Positions 1,837 through 58,350 are shown, numbered from the stretch's first letter. The stretch is 64,000 bases of DNA from Vicinamibacterales bacterium (GCA_038319675.1 JBBQDM010000003.1:201997-265996); one strand, 5' to 3'. Notes: generated by a model not told the origin, from the letters alone. Program-made: numbers and translations.

Positions 1837-1854
1837 TTGGCAGAAGCAACCCGG

Positions 1855-1914
1855 TACGGAGCGGACGGGCTTCAGCCGGTCCGACGTCCGACGGGCTAAA
1901 GCCCGTCGGCTCCG
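1855..1914 (-). repeat. REP-like double-hairpin element, copy A (inverted relative to B and C)
   Basis: TACGGAGCGGACGGGCTTCAGCCGGTCCGACGTCCGACGGGCTAAAGCCCGTCGGCTCCG is the reverse complement of the 13068 and 58269 copies. Lies just after the FKBP stop codon. Confidence 0.85.
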
Positions 1915-1939
1915 AATAGTCTGCTGTTCCCGTGCAAGC

Positions 1940-3556: not shown

Positions 3557-3608
3557 CGCGGGTTTCGTTTGGTTAACGTGCTCTGCTCGCTTGGCAGCAG
3601 AGCGACCA

Positions 3609-3882
3609 ACCATGAAGCTCCATGAAGTTCCATGAAGGAATGCCTGTCACTGACCCGTGAGGGTTGGGGGCCAGGCGAAGCCTGGCCGTGCGGGAGGAGG
3701 GTGGTCGGGAACGAATACGCCGCATGAATGCGCCCGGCGCATTCGTTCCCGACCACCCTCCTCCCGCAGCTGCCGCCGTTGGCGGCACCCAACCCGCTCT
3801 CCAATCGTCCGTAACCTTGCTCTCTGGGCAACGTCGGTCACGTACGTGCCTTTCCTCATGGATCCTCATGGAACCTCATGGT
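3609..3882 (+). repeat. family-A structured intergenic element, copy 1
   Basis: Arms of 3x10-bp CATGAAGNNN (left) and CCTCATGGNN (right), AATGCCTGTCACTGAC box, and a core at 3661-3795 with a four-way-junction fold including a 33-bp hairpin. Homologous to 26321-26607 and 48337-48677. Confidence 0.9.
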
Positions 3883-3902
3883 GAATATTCCTGACGAACG
3901 CG

Positions 3903-13040: not shown

Positions 13041-13067
13041 TTCGCACTCGAGCACTCGCAATTCTTT

Positions 13068-13127
13068 CGGAGCCGACGGGCTTTAGCCCGTCGGACATCA
13101 GACGGGCTGAAGCCCGTCTGCTCCGTA
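13068..13127 (+). repeat. REP-like double-hairpin element, copy B
   Basis: CGGAGCCGACGGGCTTTAGCCCGTCGGACATCAGACGGGCTGAAGCCCGTCTGCTCCGTA, between the convergent M50 and priA stops. Confidence 0.85.
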
Positions 13128-13149
13128 CTACACGGTGTCCGAAGGCGCA

Positions 13150-23242: not shown

Positions 23243-24403
23243 ATGGCTGATCATGCGCGACACTATCCTGTGCGGATCCTGCTCGATTACCGACCGGCGC
23301 TGCGCCAGCGAACCGGCGTCGGCGAATATGTGCACGAACTGGCCACTGCCCTGCTGGCCGGCTCGGGCACCCCTCCGGACGTCCTGACGCTGTTTTCCTC
23401 GTCATGGCGCGATCGGATTGATCGCGCGGCCGTGCCTGGTGCGGTGCTCGCCGACCGACGCGTGCCCGTGCGCCTGCTCAATTACGCCTGGCATCACTGG
23501 CAATGGCCTTCGATCGAACTGGTGACCGGACTCTCGTTTGATGTCGTGCATGCTGCGCACCCGATTCGCTTGCCGACCCGCCGTGCCGCGCAGGTGGTCA
23601 CGGTGCATGACCTCGACTTCCTGCGCCATCCGGAACGAACACGCGCCGAGATTCGGCGGGATTACCCGCGCCTTGCGCCGCAGCACATCCGTGACGCCGA
23701 TGCCGTGATCGCCGTCTCAGCCGCCACCGCTGCCGACATCGAGATACTCACCGGTCGGCCCGCGTCGCGCGTGGTGGTGGTGCCGCACGGACGACCAGCG
23801 TGGCCGAAACGCATGGACGAACCCGCCGACGGCGTGTTGTTGTTTTTCGGCACGCTTGAGCCTCGCAAAAACGTGGCCGGGCTACTCGACGCCTACGCCC
23901 GGCTGCTCGCACGTCGCGACTCGGCGGGACTCGCCACGCCGCGACTGGTGCTGGCGGGCGGCCCCGGCCCGGGTGCCGACGTGTTGCTGGCGCGCGCCAA
24001 AGACGCGGACCTGCAGGGGCGCGTCGATGTACTCGGGTACGTCGATCCCGATGTGCGACTCGATACCTATCGCTCCGCTCTCGCTCTGGTGATGCCCTCA
24101 CACACCGAAGGCTTCGGGTTACCCGCGCTTGAGGCGATGACCGTCGGTGTGCCTGTCGTGGCGGCGAATGCCGGCGCGCTCCCAGAGGTGCTGGGTGGTG
24201 CCGGCCTGCTGTGCGACGCCACCGACCCGGACGCGCTGTGCGCAGCACTCGAAACAGTCGTCACGGGTCGCGCGGTGCGCAATCAGCTGCGCGAGGCCGG
24301 CTGGCGTCGCGCGCAGGACTTCTCGTGGACACACACCGCCGCCCGCACCCGTGAGGCGTGGATGCTGGCACACGATGCGTTCACAAGGCGGCAACGTGGA
24401 TAA
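23243..24403 (+). CDS. glycosyltransferase family 4
   Basis: GT-B C-terminal motif: PSHTEGFGLPALEAMTVGVPVVAANAGALPEV. Confidence 0.85.
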   Translation: MADHARHYPVRILLDYRPALRQRTGVGEYVHELATALLAGSGTPPDVLTLFSSSWRDRIDRAAVPGAVLADRRVPVRLLNYAWHHWQWPSIELVTGLSFDVVHAAHPIRLPTRRAAQVVTVHDLDFLRHPERTRAEIRRDYPRLAPQHIRDADAVIAVSAATAADIEILTGRPASRVVVVPHGRPAWPKRMDEPADGVLLFFGTLEPRKNVAGLLDAYARLLARRDSAGLATPRLVLAGGPGPGADVLLARAKDADLQGRVDVLGYVDPDVRLDTYRSALALVMPSHTEGFGLPALEAMTVGVPVVAANAGALPEVLGGAGLLCDATDPDALCAALETVVTGRAVRNQLREAGWRRAQDFSWTHTAARTREAWMLAHDAFTRRQRG

Positions 24404-26320: not shown

Positions 26321-26607
26321 ACCATGAGGTTCCATGAGGATCCATGAGGAATGCACGACTCGACACACAGGGAGACAAGAGTCATCGAGAGCAAAGACAC
26401 GGACACTTGGGGAGCGGGTTGGGGTGCCGCCATAGGCGGCAGATGCGGGAGGAGGGTGGCCGGGAACGAAAGAGACGTCGGGTGTCTTGTTCACGTCTCT
26501 TTCGTTCCCGGCCACCCTCCTCCCGCACGGCCAGGCTTCGCCTGGCCCCCCAACCCTCACAGTCACTGACAGGCATTCCCTCATGGAACCTCATGGAGCC
26601 TCATGGT
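26321..26607 (-). repeat. family-A structured intergenic element, copy 2 (inverted orientation)
   Basis: Reverse complement aligns with copy 1 along its whole length. Near-perfect repeat arms ACCATGAGGTTCCATGAGGATCCATGAGG / CCTCATGGAACCTCATGGAGCCTCATGGT. GATCC lies on both flanks (26316-26320, 26608-26612). Confidence 0.9.
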
Positions 26608-26669
26608 GATCCTTCCGGGGGCTACTGTTCGCGAAGCTCCACTCCTACGAGGCAGGATAAGATCCCCAA

Positions 26670-27788
26670 GTGCCGGCCCGAATCGCCATCGACGCCAGAA
26701 AACTGCATGACTACGGCATTGGCACGTACGTCAGAAATCTGGTCAGCGAGTTCGCCCGGCAGCCCACCAGCGACACCTACGTGCTCATCTGCCACCCGGA
26801 CGATGCTGAGTTTGTGCGGGCATTGGGTCCGTCGTTTGAGGCGTGGCCCGACACCTCGGCGAACTATTCCATTCGCGAACAGCTGACCGTGCCCATGGAC
26901 CTGCGTCGGGCGAAGGTGGACCTGTTTCACGCGCCCCACTACGTCGTGTCCCCCCTGGTCGGGTGCCCGGTGGTGGTGACCATTCACGACTGCATCCACC
27001 TGCGGTTTCCGCAGTATCTGCCCAACCGAATGGCGCATCTCTACGCAAAGACGTTCATGGCCATCGGGGCCAACCGCGCCAAACGTATCATCACAGTCTC
27101 GCAGGCCTCGAAAGACGACATCCAGCACTACCTGCATACGTCGGCGTCGAAGATCGAGGTGATTCACAACGGTCTGGACGCGCGCTACCACTCCGCCCCT
27201 GACGAACACGCGGTGTCGCAGGTGCGCGAGCGCTTTCTGCTCAACGCGCCGTTCATCCTGTATGCCGGTAACATCAAGCCGCACAAAAACGTCGAGCGCC
27301 TCATCGACGCCTTCGCGCTGCTGCGGCAGGACGGCCATCAGGACCTGAAACTGCTCATTATCGGTGACGAACTCTCGAAGTATCCGGGCCTGCGTCGACT
27401 CGTGCATCGCCACCACCTGCACGCCCACGTCCGTTTCTTCGGCTTTGTGCCCGACGCCACCCTGGCCGCGTTGTACAAACTCGCGTCCATCTTTGTGTTC
27501 CCGTCCCTCTTTGAAGGGTTTGGTTTTCCACCGCTTGAGGCGATGGCCAGCGGCACACCGGTGATCACGTCCAACGTGTCGTCGCTGCCTGAAGTCGTCG
27601 GCGACGCCGCGCTGCTTGTGGATCCGCACGACCCGAAGGCGATCGCGGCGGCGATGGCCCGCGTCCTCAACGAGCCGACGCTGCGCCGGGAGTTGATCGC
27701 CCGTGGGTATACCCGGGCGCGCGCCTTCTCCTGGACCGACGCCGCCGCCCGCACGCGTGAGGTGTATCACTCGGTGCTCAATGCGTGA
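26670..27788 (+). CDS. glycosyltransferase family 4
   Basis: [35 protein letters not shown] start gives [12 protein letters not shown]. Confidence 0.85.
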
Positions 27789-48290: not shown

Positions 48291-48336
48291 ATTTCCGAAG
48301 CGGGGCCGCTCCCTGTTCGCGGCAGCAGAGCCTTTT

Positions 48337-48677
48337 AACATGAAGGTCAGTGAAGGTCATGAAGGTCATGGAGAAATGCCTGTCACTGACCCGTGAGGGT
48401 TGGGGGCCAAGCGCAGCTTGGCCGTGCGGGTGGAGGGCGACCGGGAACGAATACACCGGGGCGCCTTCATGCGGTGCATTCGTTCCCGGTCGCCCTCCAC
48501 CCGCATCTCTGCCGCCTGTGGCGGCACCCAACCCGCTGTCCATCGTCATCCCCCAAGATCGGGATGTCTCTGCCCCCTTCACGACCATCACGACCTTCAT
48601 CGTCCTTCACGTCAAAGCTCTTGCCTTTCCTCCGACCGAGAGTGCCTTGCTCCATGGCCCTCCATGTTCTACATGGT
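48337..48677 (+). repeat. family-A structured intergenic element, copy 3 (longer, nested arms)
   Basis: Same box and core (48397-48534) as copy 1. Inner arms CATGAAGGTCAGTGAAGGTCATGAAGGTCATGG / CCTTCACGACCATCACGACCTTCATCGTCCTTCAC. Outer right arm CTCCATGGCCCTCCATGTTCTACATGGT. Confidence 0.88.
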
Positions 48678-48911
48678 GAAAAACAAGTTGCGACTTGGGC
48701 AAACAATCCAACCGATTGTTGTCAAGAATCCAACACTCGTCGCGAAAACGACACAGCCGTACGCGATCCTGTCGGCAGTTGTACTGCACGAACGGACGTG
48801 ATCGGCCGATTACTCACTGTAGAACCGACAGTGACGACCCGGCTGATGATTCTCGGAACGAATCTCCAGTCGGGCACGTCGCTTGCATAGAAGGTTTTGT
48901 GAAGGGGGGCC

Positions 48912-49175: not shown

Positions 49176-50102
49176 GTGTGCATGGCTCTCGCACTTCGAT
49201 CAACGACTCGTCCGGTTGCGCGGCGTTCCGCCCGATCGGCCCCTCGCTCGGTAGACCGGCCCCGACACCAGTTCTCGATCGGCCGCTCCACCTTCCGTTT
49301 TTACCTCGGCGACTGTGTCCCGGTGATGGGGAGGCTTGCGCCCCACAGCATCGACGCCATTGTCACCTCCCCGCCCTACAACCTCGGGATCAAATACCGA
49401 ACCTACGAGGATGACATTCCGCGCTCGGAATACCTCGCGTGGACCGATCAGTGGCTGCGCGCGGCGTCAAAGCTGAGTCAGCCGGGTGGCTCGCTGTTCC
49501 TGAACGTTGGCGCCAAACCCACCGACCCGTGGATTCCACTTGAGGTGGCACAGGTCGCGCGACGCTACTTCAAGCTGCAGAACACGATTCACTGGGTCAA
49601 GTCGATTGCCATCGATCGCGAGTCCACCAGTGATGCGTCGGGCATCGACCGCGACCTGGCCGTGGGTCACTACAAACCGATCAACAGCGACCGGTTCGTG
49701 AACGATTGCCACGAATACATCTTTCACCTCACGCCGGCCGGCACGACCAAACTGGACCGCCGCGCCGTGGGTGTGCCCTATCAGGACAAGTCCAACGCCG
49801 CGCGCTGGGCCACTGGAGGCGACGGCAAACGCTGCCGCGGCAATACCTGGTTCATCCCGTACGAAACCATCCAGAGCCGCGACCGTGACCGTCCGCACCC
49901 GGCGTGTTTCCCGCCCAAGGTGCCCGAGCAGTGCCTGCGCCTGCATGGGGTTGACCGTGTCACCACCGTGCTCGACCCCTTCCTTGGCCTCGGCAACACG
50001 GCGATCGCCGCCGGTCGCCTCGGGTTGAATTTTGTGGGGATCGAACTGGACGAACACTATCTGGAAGAAGCCGTCTCGCGGGTCCGCGAAGCGCTCAAAT
50101 AA
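49176..50102 (+). CDS. site-specific DNA methyltransferase, beta class (motif IV SPPY before motif I), possibly N4-cytosine
   Basis: FYLGDC..IDAIVTSPPYNL (motif IV), HPACFP, VLDPFLGLGNTAIAA (motif I). No adjacent endonuclease ORF is seen. Confidence 0.85.
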   Translation: MCMALALRSTTRPVARRSARSAPRSVDRPRHQFSIGRSTFRFYLGDCVPVMGRLAPHSIDAIVTSPPYNLGIKYRTYEDDIPRSEYLAWTDQWLRAASKLSQPGGSLFLNVGAKPTDPWIPLEVAQVARRYFKLQNTIHWVKSIAIDRESTSDASGIDRDLAVGHYKPINSDRFVNDCHEYIFHLTPAGTTKLDRRAVGVPYQDKSNAARWATGGDGKRCRGNTWFIPYETIQSRDRDRPHPACFPPKVPEQCLRLHGVDRVTTVLDPFLGLGNTAIAAGRLGLNFVGIELDEHYLEEAVSRVREALK

Positions 50103-58241: not shown

Positions 58242-58268
58242 ACGTTTTCGGATTGGACGTAGTGTTTT

Positions 58269-58328
58269 CGGAGCCGACGGGCTTCAGCCCGTCGGACATC
58301 AGACGGACTAAAGTCCGTCTGCTCCGTA
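58269..58328 (+). repeat. REP-like double-hairpin element, copy C
   Basis: CGGAGCCGACGGGCTTCAGCCCGTCGGACATCAGACGGACTAAAGTCCGTCTGCTCCGTA, between convergent stops. The second stem carries compensated changes (GACGGAC/GTCCGTC versus GACGGGC/GCCCGTC). Confidence 0.85.
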
Positions 58329-58350
58329 CTGCACGCGTGTCGAGAGTGCC

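What the first reader, a model, noticed from the sequence alone, without database searches (positions are those of the whole stretch)
48397..48534. Every stem of the family-A core is preserved by compensatory substitutions between copies
Long hairpin, 5' arm: copy 1 is GCGGGaGGAGGGtGgtCGGGAACGAATACgCCG and copy 3 is GCGGGtGGAGGGcGacCGGGAACGAATACaCCG. All five differences are matched by complementary changes in the 3' arm (CGGtGCATTCGTTCCCGgtCgCCCTCCaCCCGC). Copy 2 has GGTGGCCGGG/CCCGGCCACC, plus a completely different but fully paired distal stem (GAAAGAGACG/CGTCTCTTTC). In the small hairpin, GGCCAGGC/GCCTGGCC becomes GGCCAAGC/GCTTGGCC in copy 3. Loops drift freely (GTT/TAT/TGT, GAA/GCA). The same single A-opposite-C mismatch is kept in copies 1 and 3. 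This points to selection on pairing rather than on primary sequence.
Basis: seen in the sequence. Interest (0 to 1): 0.75.

Follow-up and report, generated by a model that had tools for sequence, protein, structure and literature searches.

The report
Cloverleaf palindromic repeat element of Acidobacteria
The flagged stretch is the core of a non-coding, roughly 280-base palindromic repeat, present three times in this soil-bacterium window, whose four stems stay paired through matched changes on both arms; it belongs to a previously undescribed wider family in Acidobacteria and probably acts as folded DNA rather than as an RNA gene.

Summary
Window 48397-48534 is the 138-nt core of one of three copies (cores 3661-3795 +, 26416-26556 inverted, 48397-48534 +) of an intergenic palindromic element in a Vicinamibacterales-like (Acidobacteriota) contig. 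Either strand of the core folds into a four-way junction:
- an 8-9 bp outer stem;
- an 8-bp hairpin with a GNA triloop;
- a 33-35 bp hairpin carrying an invariant CGGGAACGAA/TTCGTTCCCG box;
- a 7-bp triloop hairpin.

Inverted arrays of 9-10 bp CATGRRG units flank the core. All five arm differences between copies 1 and 3 are compensated.

New evidence:
- Orthologous sites in close relatives are filled, empty, or lack exactly the long hairpin.
- Divergent elements in other Acidobacteriota MAGs keep the same architecture and box with different stem sequences (50 of 56 pairs change on both sides).

Several points favour a DNA-level explanation, meaning hairpin or cruciform recognition plus arm-to-arm templated repair:
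- G·U pairs are no commoner than A·C or transversion mismatches.
- The long-hairpin tip is inverted between copies.
- Whole arm segments are replaced in a paired way.
- The small hairpin carries the GCGNAGC DNA mini-hairpin motif.
- Copies lie in both orientations relative to genes.
- There is no Rfam match.

I read it as a mobile or selfish structured DNA repeat, a new variant of the MITE/REPIN/bcr1 kind. The mobilising enzyme is unknown.

The parts
48397..48534 (+). Copy 3 core, the flagged stretch: a four-way junction. Outer stem 48397-48404 with 48527-48534; H1 48405-48423; H2 48426-48504; H3 48510-48526.
   Evidence: CM R1 scores it 138.5 bits.
48405..48423 (+). H1 of copy 3: GGCCAAGC-GCA-GCTTGGCC, an 8-bp hairpin with a GNA triloop (GCGCAGC mini-hairpin motif). 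One pair is compensated relative to copies 1 and 2.
   Evidence: Motif literature: PMC13037366 and PMC3201870.
48426..48504 (+). H2 of copy 3: a 33-bp long hairpin. The invariant box CGGGAACGAA is at 48442-48451 and TTCGTTCCCG at 48479-48488. There is an A·C mismatch at pair 28. The tip is inverted relative to copy 1.
48510..48526 (+). H3 of copy 3: TGCCGCC-TGT-GGCGGCA, a 7-bp triloop hairpin.
48375..48396 (+). Conserved unpaired spacer AATGCCTGTCACTGACCCGTGA. It is identical in copies 1 and 3, with 1-3 changes in copy 2, L124 and L129.
48339..48373 (+). Copy 3 left array of 9-10 bp units (CATGAAGGT type).
   Evidence: The same variant array and flank occur in L129 at 1515-1560.
48577..48611 (+). 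Copy 3 inner right array (CTTCACGACC type). It is the inverted partner of the left array; all differences between them are A/G transitions.
48650..48678 (+). Copy 3 outer right array (CTCCATGG type). It is shared with the orthologous copy in L124, so it is the original right end.
48308..48331 (+). Small hairpin module ending in GGCAGCAGAGC, just outside the left array. It also occurs next to copy 1 and in L129.
3610..3883 (+). Copy 1, whole element. Left array 3610-3638 (CCATGAAG x3); spacer 3639-3660; core 3661-3795; variable spacer; right array 3854-3883 (CCTCATGG x3). It lies between the stop codons of two convergent genes.
26322..26608 (-). Copy 2, whole element, inverted relative to copies 1 and 3. 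Arrays 26322-26349 and 26579-26608; core 26416-26556; spacer 26557-26577. It lies between two co-directional glycosyltransferase genes. It is the most perfectly paired copy.

Best explanation
The flagged stretch is the core of a non-coding, non-autonomous palindromic repeat element, about 275-340 bp long. It belongs to a MITE/REPIN-like class and to a wider Acidobacteriota family.

Anatomy. The element has an inverted array of two to four 9-10 bp CATGRRG units on each side and a conserved 22-nt spacer. Its 135-141 nt core can fold on either strand into a four-way junction: an outer stem, a GNA-triloop mini-hairpin, a long hairpin with the invariant box CGGGAACGAA/TTCGTTCCCG, and a second triloop hairpin.

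Proposed mechanism.
- The element is gained and lost in intergenic DNA just 3' of genes.
- Its stems matter as DNA, either as hairpins in single-stranded DNA or as an extruded cruciform. A still unidentified mobilising or processing protein recognises that form together with the box and the flanking unit arrays. A structure-specific enzyme such as an HUH/Y1 (RAYT/TIRYT-like) transposase is the leading candidate.
- Arm-to-arm templated repair (intrastrand template switching) copies changes from one arm to the other. Combined with selection for an intact fold, this produces the 'compensatory' pattern.

Shown: repeat status; anatomy; paired changes; gain, loss and deletion polymorphism; distant relatives with the same architecture; lack of an RNA-type wobble signature; tip inversion.
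Inferred: DNA-level recognition, template switching, and the nature of the enzyme.
For: Repeat status and anatomy.

Gain and loss at orthologous sites:
- The copy 1 site is filled in the 99% relative L116, but with H2 deleted exactly. It is empty in the 98%, 91% and 88-89% relatives.
- The copy 3 site is filled in L124 and empty in L122 and L123.

Structure is kept while sequence changes:
- Close copies.
- Families in L052, L101 and L043/L057/L111 fold into the same junction on their own. They match the covariance models over their full length at 46-92 bits.
- 50 of 56 pairs change on both sides.
- Stems evolve more slowly than loops between orthologues, p = 0.02.

DNA rather than RNA:
- Mismatch classes are about equal: G·U 20, A·C 12, transversion 17, against 601 Watson-Crick pairs.
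- 3 of 7 compensated pairs in the close family are transversion-type.
- The adjacent CG-to-AT double change in H3 of L129 and the wholesale replacement of the distal stem in copy 2 are each mirrored on both arms.
- The H2 tip is inverted between copies.
- H1 carries GCGAAGC or GCGCAGC, the DNA mini-hairpin motif. It is much more stable as DNA than as RNA and is found at single-stranded-DNA priming sites (PMC13037366).
- Both strands fold equally well as DNA.
- Copies lie in both orientations relative to flanking genes.
- No promoter or terminator consensus is present. Rfam gives nothing above generic hairpin hits.

Flanking arrays: forward units on the left and reverse units on the right also occur in the Ww172 family.

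Precedent: RAYT-like HUH transposases with TIR repeat families form a distinct group in Acidobacteria (PMC3733652).
Against: - No target-site duplication or clean empty-site junction could be defined at any of the four loci.
- No transposase with matching ends was found. No transposase domain was found among the 20 window ORFs scanned against Pfam, roughly 40% of the likely genes; the neighbours of the distant copies were also negative.
- The data set is small: four independent loci in the close family and about five distant families.
- The distant families were found with a pattern that required the box, so conservation of the box is partly a product of how they were found.
- In copies 1 and 3, all transition differences between the left and right unit arrays, and the position-28 mismatch, read as G·U on one strand. 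That strand's RNA fold is 16-18 kcal/mol better. An RNA reading would predict this.
- Every copy lies within about 55 nt of a stop codon, so read-through transcripts must contain the element.
Confidence: 0.55

Rival explanations
1. The element is a structured RNA. It is transcribed, usually by read-through from the upstream gene, and selection acts on RNA pairing. It could be a 3'-UTR stabiliser, a terminator or an RNase target, or a small RNA, as proposed for ERIC, Correia and bcr1 repeats.
For: - Folding is very strong and significant: -171 to -201 kcal/mol for whole elements, z-scores -11 to -13.
- Covariation is deep.
- All copies start within about 55 nt of a stop codon.
- In copies 1 and 3 every arm asymmetry is a G·U on the same element strand.
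- Precedent: bcr1, where compensatory changes are reported to keep an RNA cruciform-like fold (PMC3184786).
Against: - There is no excess of G·U over A·C or other mismatches (p = 0.2).
- Transversion-type and multi-base paired replacements occur.
- The tip is inverted between copies, and position 28 reads G·T on that strand in L129, against A·C in copies 1 and 3. The favourable strand is therefore not constant.
- Copies lie in both orientations relative to flanking genes.
- Triloops of the DNA mini-hairpin type are weak in RNA.
- No promoter or terminator consensus was found.
- No Rfam family matches.
Confidence: 0.25
2. The element has no function. It is a selfish or neutral palindrome whose arms stay identical only through DNA-level homogenisation (template switching or gene conversion between arms). 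The apparent compensation is a by-product.
For: - The tip is inverted between copies.
- H2 is deleted exactly in an orthologue.
- Paired multi-base replacements occur.
- Related genomes fill the same intergenic sites with other hairpin and tandem-repeat sequences.
Against: - Homogenisation keeps arms alike, but it does not explain why the number, order and size of hairpins, the triloops, the box and the flanking arrays persist across families whose stems share almost no sequence.
- It does not explain why the same position-28 mismatch persists in four copies.
- It does not explain why an unpaired 22-nt spacer is conserved.
Confidence: 0.13
3. The element encodes a small protein. ATG codons in the flanking units open reading frames that run inward in all frames.
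For: ORFs of 70-110 aa cross every copy on both strands.
Against: - The translated frames have no homologues in 5.8 billion proteins (a six-frame concatenate of all three copies).
- One frame of copy 2 had none in 1.84 billion proteins, apart from a single weak low-complexity hit.
- Loop-length differences shift the frame between copies.
- Paired arm changes alter the amino acids.
- The ORFs are explained by the 64% GC content.
Confidence: 0.01

Closest known systems
bcr1 repeats of the Bacillus cereus group (Okstad 2004; Klevan 2007, as summarised in PMC3184786)
   Same: Both are short (~155 bp in bcr1), non-coding, interspersed repeats with a non-conserved genomic distribution between close strains. 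Both fold into a cruciform-like multi-hairpin structure kept by compensatory base-pair changes.
   Different: bcr1 has 5-bp direct repeats at its ends and is shown to be transcribed. Here no target duplication was found and transcription is unknown. This element has a four-way junction with a long box-bearing hairpin and flanking arrays of 9-10 bp units, and it occurs in a different phylum.
REP/REPIN/BIME elements mobilised by RAYT, and the TIRtron/TIRYT repeat families (PMC3733652; PMC2817692)
   Same: All are intergenic palindromes that form hairpins in single-stranded nucleic acid. They are often modular or nested, lack target duplications, and are thought to be handled by HUH/Y1 transposases that recognise folded DNA. 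A sharply defined TIRYT group exists in Acidobacteria, and some of those genes are flanked by TIR repeat families.
   Different: REPs are 20-40 nt long and carry a GTAG or CGTC tag. This core is about 138 nt, has no such tag, has three hairpins inside an outer stem, and has tandem-unit arrays. No RAYT or TIRYT gene was seen next to any copy.
Classical bacterial MITEs (Correia/NEMIS, ERIC, Nezha, Chunjie)
   Same: Size, terminal inverted repeats, intergenic position close to gene ends, very stable predicted folds, and filled-versus-empty sites in related strains.
   Different: Those MITEs have defined TIRs matching a known IS, and target-site duplications. Here the ends are arrays of short tandem units that vary in type between copies. 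No duplication and no parent IS were found. The conserved part is the internal core rather than the ends.
Hairpin signals in single-stranded DNA that carry GNA mini-hairpins: phage G4 origin, RSF1010 ssiA, phage N4 promoters (PMC13037366)
   Same: H1 contains the GCGNAGC (or CCGNAGG) mini-hairpin motif. Several hairpins sit side by side, as in G4-type origins.
   Different: Those signals are single-copy elements of phage or plasmid replicons. This is a dispersed chromosomal repeat. No replicon context and no priming function are shown.

Membership tests
[quoted passage not shown] | Small, non-coding, present in several copies | tested here: met
   Three copies of 275-340 bp occur in 64 kb. The translated frames have no protein homologues.
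[quoted passage not shown] | Terminal inverted repeats | tested here: met
   Inverted arrays of two to four CATGRRG units lie at both ends. They are imperfect and differ in type between copies.
[quoted passage not shown] | Target-site duplication flanking the element | tested here: not met
   No consistent direct repeat is seen at copies 1-3 or L124. Where the site is empty in a relative, the flanks do not align across the junction.
[quoted passage not shown] | TIRs shared with an autonomous IS whose transposase acts in trans | tested here: inconclusive
   The 20 window ORFs scanned against Pfam and the neighbours of distant copies show no transposase domain. The only transposase found, an IS110-family one in L129, is an insertion into the element. 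The rest of the genome could not be searched.
[quoted passage not shown] | Presence/absence polymorphism at orthologous sites | tested here: met
   Copy 1 site: filled in L116; empty in L115, L120, L136-L138 and L118. Copy 3 site: filled in L124; empty in L122 and L123.
REP/REPIN (RAYT-mobilised) or TIRtron repeat (TIRYT) | Short palindrome with a GTAG or CGTC tag (REP), or TIRs flanking a Y1/HUH transposase gene | tested here: not met
   The core has no GTAG or CGTC tag. No Y1 transposase lies next to any copy examined.
REP/REPIN (RAYT-mobilised) or TIRtron repeat (TIRYT) | Hairpin kept by correlated changes in both arms; no target duplication | tested here: met
   No duplication was found.
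bcr1-type structured repeat | Cruciform-like fold kept by compensatory changes | tested here: met
bcr1-type structured repeat | 5-bp direct repeats at the ends; element is transcribed | tested here: not met
   No direct repeats were found. Transcription cannot be tested with these tools.
Any described RNA family (Rfam 15) | Match to a covariance model at the gathering score | tested here: not met
   The window yields only three tRNAs. At E <= 10 the element gives only generic miRNA-precursor hairpin hits far below their cut-offs.
Integron attC site | R''(RYYYAAC)...R'(GTTRRRY) order, extrahelical bases, position at the 3' end of cassettes in an array next to an integrase | tested here: not met
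   The outer stem reads GGGTTGGGG...CCCAACCC, which is the opposite order. The fold is a four-way junction and not a single bulged hairpin. There is no cassette array and no integrase.
Single-strand initiation or hairpin-promoter signals with GNA mini-hairpins | GCGNAGC or CCGNAGG mini-hairpin in a multi-hairpin signal | tested here: met
   H1 is ..GGCGAAGCC.. in copies 1 and 2 and L129, and ..AGCGCAGCT.. in copy 3 and L124. L101 has GCGAAGC, Ww172 has CCGCAGG, and L052 and L111 have CCGGAGG.
Single-strand initiation or hairpin-promoter signals with GNA mini-hairpins | Acts on a single-stranded replicon or is recognised by a primase or RNA polymerase | not testable with these tools
   This needs biochemistry.

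The most novel reading that the evidence does not exclude
The element represents an undescribed, phylum-wide class of structured DNA elements in Acidobacteriota. Each is a four-way-junction ('cloverleaf') palindrome with an invariant 10-bp box in its long arm, a DNA mini-hairpin, and iteron-like arrays of 9-10 bp units on both sides. It would be the substrate of a still unknown structure-specific mobilisation, priming or recombination system. One candidate is the Acidobacteria-specific TIRYT branch of HUH transposases. The architecture also recalls hairpin-plus-iteron origins of HUH Rep proteins.
Probability: 0.3. Interest if true: 0.7.

Novelty: new variant of a known kind. Interest (0 to 1): 0.5.

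Why it matters
Acidobacteriota are among the most abundant soil bacteria, yet almost nothing is known about their repeats or mobile DNA.

If the wider family and its conserved box hold up, three things follow:
- There would be a defined sequence-plus-structure signature to search for in genomes and MAGs.
- That signature is a handle for finding the enzyme that recognises it.
- It would be a natural case for separating two causes of 'compensatory' change in palindromes: selection on a fold, and mechanical arm-to-arm copying.

There is also a practical point. Such elements generate spurious ORFs, break or mislead assemblies, and can be mistaken for structured-RNA candidates in covariation screens.

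Tried and rejected
1. The single genome-contig scan used the pattern CGGGAACGAA N8-38 TTCGTTCCCG, which was too loose. It did later prove useful for distant relatives.
2. The first metagenome scan, on the spacer plus outer stem, found nothing. L124 later showed that the spacer is not invariant.
3. The second metagenome scan, on one arm, gave one true copy (L129) and two chance hits.
4. A six-frame concatenated translation of the three copies was searched against 5.8 billion proteins and found nothing. The candidate cap may have crowded out true hits.
5. One frame searched against 1.84 billion representative proteins gave one weak low-complexity hit.
6. BLAST of copy 2 against plasmids and phages gave no match.
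7. Viral scans turned up three unrelated things: a 10-bp tandem array in a phage contig (L121), a hairpin in small 38%-GC contigs, and a single unrelated hairpin in L134.
8. An exact look-up of the window's ABC-F protein failed because it is not on record.
9. I first thought one fixed strand was favoured for RNA, because of G·U pairs on the minus strand of copies 1 and 3. I dropped this as a general rule. At H2 position 28, L129 carries G·T where copies 1 and 3 carry A·C on the same element strand, and the wider set shows no G·U excess.
10. I considered attC, retron ncRNA, tRNA-like RNA, CRISPR and IS200/IS605 ends and rejected them on anatomy.
11. A second, broader covariance model (R2) found no further members in about 360 kb of Acidobacteriota DNA. 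So I could not test conservation of the box free of the bias from how the relatives were found.

Full report
**What is at the coordinates.** Window 48397-48534 reads GGGTTGGG / GGCCAAGC-GCA-GCTTGGCC / GT / a 79-nt long hairpin / ATCTC / TGCCGCC-TGT-GGCGGCA / CCCAACCC. Two further copies of the same core lie at 3661-3795 (same orientation) and 26416-26556 (inverted; its two small hairpins are swapped on the + strand). The five differences between the 5' arms of copies 1 and 3 are each matched by the complementary change in the 3' arm. The same A-opposite-C mismatch is kept in both copies. Copy 2 has a different but perfectly paired distal stem. One pair of the small hairpin is G-C in copies 1 and 2 and A-T in copy 3. 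The chance that five 3'-arm changes would fall on the partner positions with the right bases is about 2e-8. On a MAFFT alignment of five close copies, 97.5% of cells pair and the covariation score is 0.223, against 0.090 in shuffles (0 of 500 reach it) and at most 0.05 with slid partners.

**The core is part of a larger element.** Each copy is flanked by inverted arrays of two to four tandem 9-10 bp units: CCATGAAG or CCATGAGG in copies 1 and 2, and CATGAAGGT-type units in copy 3. On the H1 side there is a conserved 22-nt spacer, AATGCCTGTCACTGACCCGTGA. On the H3 side there is a variable 40-65 nt spacer. Whole elements fold at -171 to -201 kcal/mol as RNA, with z-scores of -11 to -13 for copy 3. 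The cores fold as DNA into the same four-way junction on both strands, with equal energy and z-scores of -13 to -16. All three copies are intergenic and begin 17-54 nt after a stop codon. Copy 1 lies between convergent genes, copy 2 between two co-directional glycosyltransferase genes, and copy 3 after a 197-aa ORF. Relative to the upstream gene, the element is in one orientation in copies 1 and 3 and in the other in copy 2.

**Host.** The flanking ABC-F protein places the contig in Acidobacteriota, near Vicinamibacterales MAGs. GC content is 64%.

**Orthologous sites, copy 1.** The site is filled in a 99% relative (L116), but there the long hairpin is missing exactly: GTGCGG|CTGCC. It is empty in two 98% relatives, where 4 bp separate the two stop codons. 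It is also empty in 91% relatives and in 88-89% relatives.

**Orthologous sites, copy 3.** The site is filled in a relative whose flanking peptidase is 92% identical (L124). That copy has canonical CCATGAGG arrays on the left and a CTCCATGG array on the right. The same right array also survives in the window at 48650-48678, outside the CATGAAGGT-type pair. The site is empty in 90% relatives. So the element is gained or lost on short time scales and its ends are modular. I could not find a target-site duplication or a clean empty-site junction. The empty sites carry other short hairpins or tandem units instead.

**Constraint between orthologues.** Copy 3 and L124 differ at 1 of 112 paired positions (an uncompensated G·A) and by 3 events in 26 unpaired positions. 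Fisher's exact test gives p = 0.02.

**More copies.** The collection scans yielded one further close copy, L129. It adds two adjacent compensated pairs in H3 (GCCGCC/GGCGGC becomes GCATCC/GGATGC), a T·G intermediate at H2 pair 13, and an uncompensated A·C at pair 4. In L129, an IS110-family transposase gene with its non-coding leader is inserted between the spacer and the left array. The array resumes after the insertion.

**A wider family.** Sixteen of the 114 loci returned by my over-loose genome scan are Acidobacteriota. That is far more than the few percent expected from the phylum's share of species; the share is my own estimate, and p < 2e-4 even if it is 5%.

Several of these loci are clearly related elements.
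- L052, L101 (subdivision 6) and three loci of MAG Ww172 each fold on their own into an outer stem enclosing a short triloop hairpin, a long hairpin with the CGGGAACGAA/TTCGTTCCCG box, and a second short triloop hairpin.
- They match covariance models built from the close family over their full length: 46-76 bits with R1 and 65-92 bits with R2.
- The Ww172 loci also carry forward units on the left and reverse units on the right at about 9-nt spacing.
- Bryobacteraceae loci carry the box hairpin alone, inside inverted repeats that contain CTCCATGAGG.

On the model-fitted alignment, 95.5% of cells pair and 50 of 56 pairs change on both sides. The covariation score is 0.595, against 0.133 in shuffles and at most 0.10 with slid partners.

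Four caveats apply.
- That alignment is fitted to the structure and holds both strands of each locus.
- The distant loci were found by a pattern that required the box, so the constancy of the box is partly a product of that search.
- A GTAG-tagged, REP-like hairpin family in an Oscillatoria MAG that happens to share the box scores 40-48 bits without having the junction. Bit scores alone therefore do not prove the architecture.
- A broader model found no additional, box-free members in about 360 kb.

**DNA or RNA?** Several observations point to DNA.
- On one strand per locus there are 601 Watson-Crick pairs, 20 G·U, 12 A·C and 17 transversion mismatches. A selected RNA helix normally tolerates G·U far better than the other mismatch classes. 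Here all classes are about equally rare, and the strands counted were those the model preferred.
- Three of the seven compensated pairs in the close family are transversion-type, which cannot pass through a wobble intermediate.
- The adjacent double change in H3 of L129 and the complete replacement of the distal stem in copy 2 are mirrored on both arms. Copying one arm from the other explains this more economically than many independent point changes.
- The tip of the long hairpin in copy 1 is the reverse complement of the tip in copy 3, L124 and L129. Alignment scores are 14-20 against the reverse complement and 2-4 in the same orientation. At position 28, L129 reads G·T on the strand where copies 1 and 3 read A·C. 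This could be a second inversion or an independent change. Inversion between the arms of a palindrome is a DNA event.
- An orthologue has lost exactly the long hairpin, the usual fate of long DNA palindromes.
- H1 carries GCGAAGC or GCGCAGC, and relatives carry GCGAAGC, CCGCAGG or CCGGAGG. This is the 'mini-hairpin DNA' motif. It is markedly more stable as DNA than as RNA and is known from single-stranded-DNA priming and promoter hairpins (PMC13037366, PMC3201870).
- No sigma-70-like promoter or intrinsic terminator is present. Rfam gives only generic hairpin hits.

Three observations count for RNA.
- In copies 1 and 3, all transition differences between the left and right arrays, and the position-28 mismatch, are G·U on the same strand. 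That strand's RNA fold is 16-18 kcal/mol better.
- All copies sit in probable 3' UTRs.
- Comparable repeats (bcr1, ERIC) have been interpreted at the RNA level (PMC3184786).

Homogenisation alone cannot explain everything. It does not account for the persistence of the architecture, the triloops, the box and the flanking arrays across families whose stems share almost no sequence. It also does not account for the survival of the position-28 mismatch in four copies. Some selection on the fold is needed.

**Best reading.** This is a mobile or selfish, non-coding, structured DNA repeat. Its hairpins, box and unit arrays are recognised in folded (single-stranded or cruciform) DNA by an unidentified enzyme, and arm-to-arm templated repair contributes to the compensatory pattern. 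I put this at about 0.55.

The leading candidate class for the enzyme is the RAYT-like HUH transposases with TIR repeat families (TIRYT/TIRtrons), which form a distinct group in Acidobacteria (PMC3733652). No such gene was seen next to any copy, so this step is inference.

The rivals are a structured RNA (0.25), a function-free palindrome kept only by homogenisation (0.13), and a small protein (0.01).

**Comparison with known kinds.** The element works like bcr1, REPIN/BIME and classical MITEs. It fails defining features of each: it has no target duplication, no GTAG or CGTC tag, no associated transposase and no parent IS. It also differs in three ways: the four-way junction, the conserved box, and ends made of tandem units. 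I therefore class it as a new variant of a known kind and not as a member of a named family.

**Verdict.** The inference 'selection on pairing' is partly right. The RNA emphasis is probably wrong. Interest is moderate at 0.5. It would be higher if the phylum-wide family and a dedicated enzyme were confirmed.

Noticed in passing
window 1854-1923, 13065-13134, 58266-58335: A second repeat family: about 70 nt made of two inverted GACGGGCT-NNN-AGCCCGTC hairpins inside an outer CGGAGC/GCTCCG stem, resembling REP doublets (REPIN-like). Three copies, 76-93% identical.
   Followed up: no
L129 311-1514 (transposase ORF 483-1499): An IS110-family insertion sequence (Pfam DEDD_Tnp_IS110 plus Transposase_20) with a ~215-nt non-coding leader sits inside an element copy, between the spacer and the left unit array. 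This fits the known habit of that family of targeting repeated palindromes.
   Followed up: partly
L116 5869-5927 (orthologue of window 3661-3795): The 99%-identical relative carries copy 1 with the 75-nt long hairpin removed exactly, leaving GTGCGG|CTGCC. This is either a palindrome deletion or, less likely, an assembly artefact.
   Followed up: partly
window 3580-3603 and 48308-48331; L129 ~1550-1580: A small hairpin module ending in GGCAGCAGAGC lies 6-7 nt outside the left array of copies 1 and 3 and of L129. A related TTCGCGAA-centred sequence lies next to copy 2 in the opposite orientation. The repeat unit may extend beyond the arrays.
   Followed up: partly
L118 11590-11750; L136 11600-11640: At the site that holds copy 1 in the window, other relatives carry different fillers. 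L118 has about ten tandem CGGCACYT units between two GGCACCCCTGAAGGGGTGCC hairpins. L136 has four CAAAGGY-type units. Short tandem-unit arrays seem to be a general feature of 3' intergenic DNA in these genomes.
   Followed up: no
L122 9275-9318: The empty copy 3 site holds a mini-palindrome, AACCATGAACC-9 nt-GGTTCCTGGTT, whose arms resemble a single flanking unit. It could be a deletion footprint or chance.
   Followed up: no
L004, L009, L012, L019, L032, L046, L049, L053, L056, L058, L070, L086, L092, L100, L105, L108 (Oscillatoria sp. SIO1A7): A high-copy, GTAG-tagged, REP-like hairpin family in a cyanobacterial MAG: GTAGG(G/T)..GGCC-CGGGAACGAA-ACCCAAC...loop. It happens to contain the same 10-bp box. 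It has no cloverleaf.
   Followed up: partly
L130-L133, L135 (viral contigs, 4-6 kb, 38% GC): A set of related small viral contigs shares a hairpin with the same 10-bp box around a TCCAA..TTGGA inner stem. This is probably coincidental.
   Followed up: no
L121 350-480 (viral contig): About ten tandem 10-bp repeats (CCATGAGGTT, CCTTGAGGTC and similar) lie near the end of a phage contig. The unit is the same as the element's flanking unit, but the repeats form a plain direct array.
   Followed up: no
window 24089-24359 and 27495-27765: The two glycosyltransferase genes on either side of the copy 2 region are paralogues, with 71-81% identical stretches 3406 bp apart.
   Followed up: no
window 49176-50102: An N6/N4 DNA methylase gene lies about 500 bp to the right of copy 3, after a lower-GC spacer. 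It is conserved in relatives that lack the element, so it is not linked to it.
   Followed up: partly
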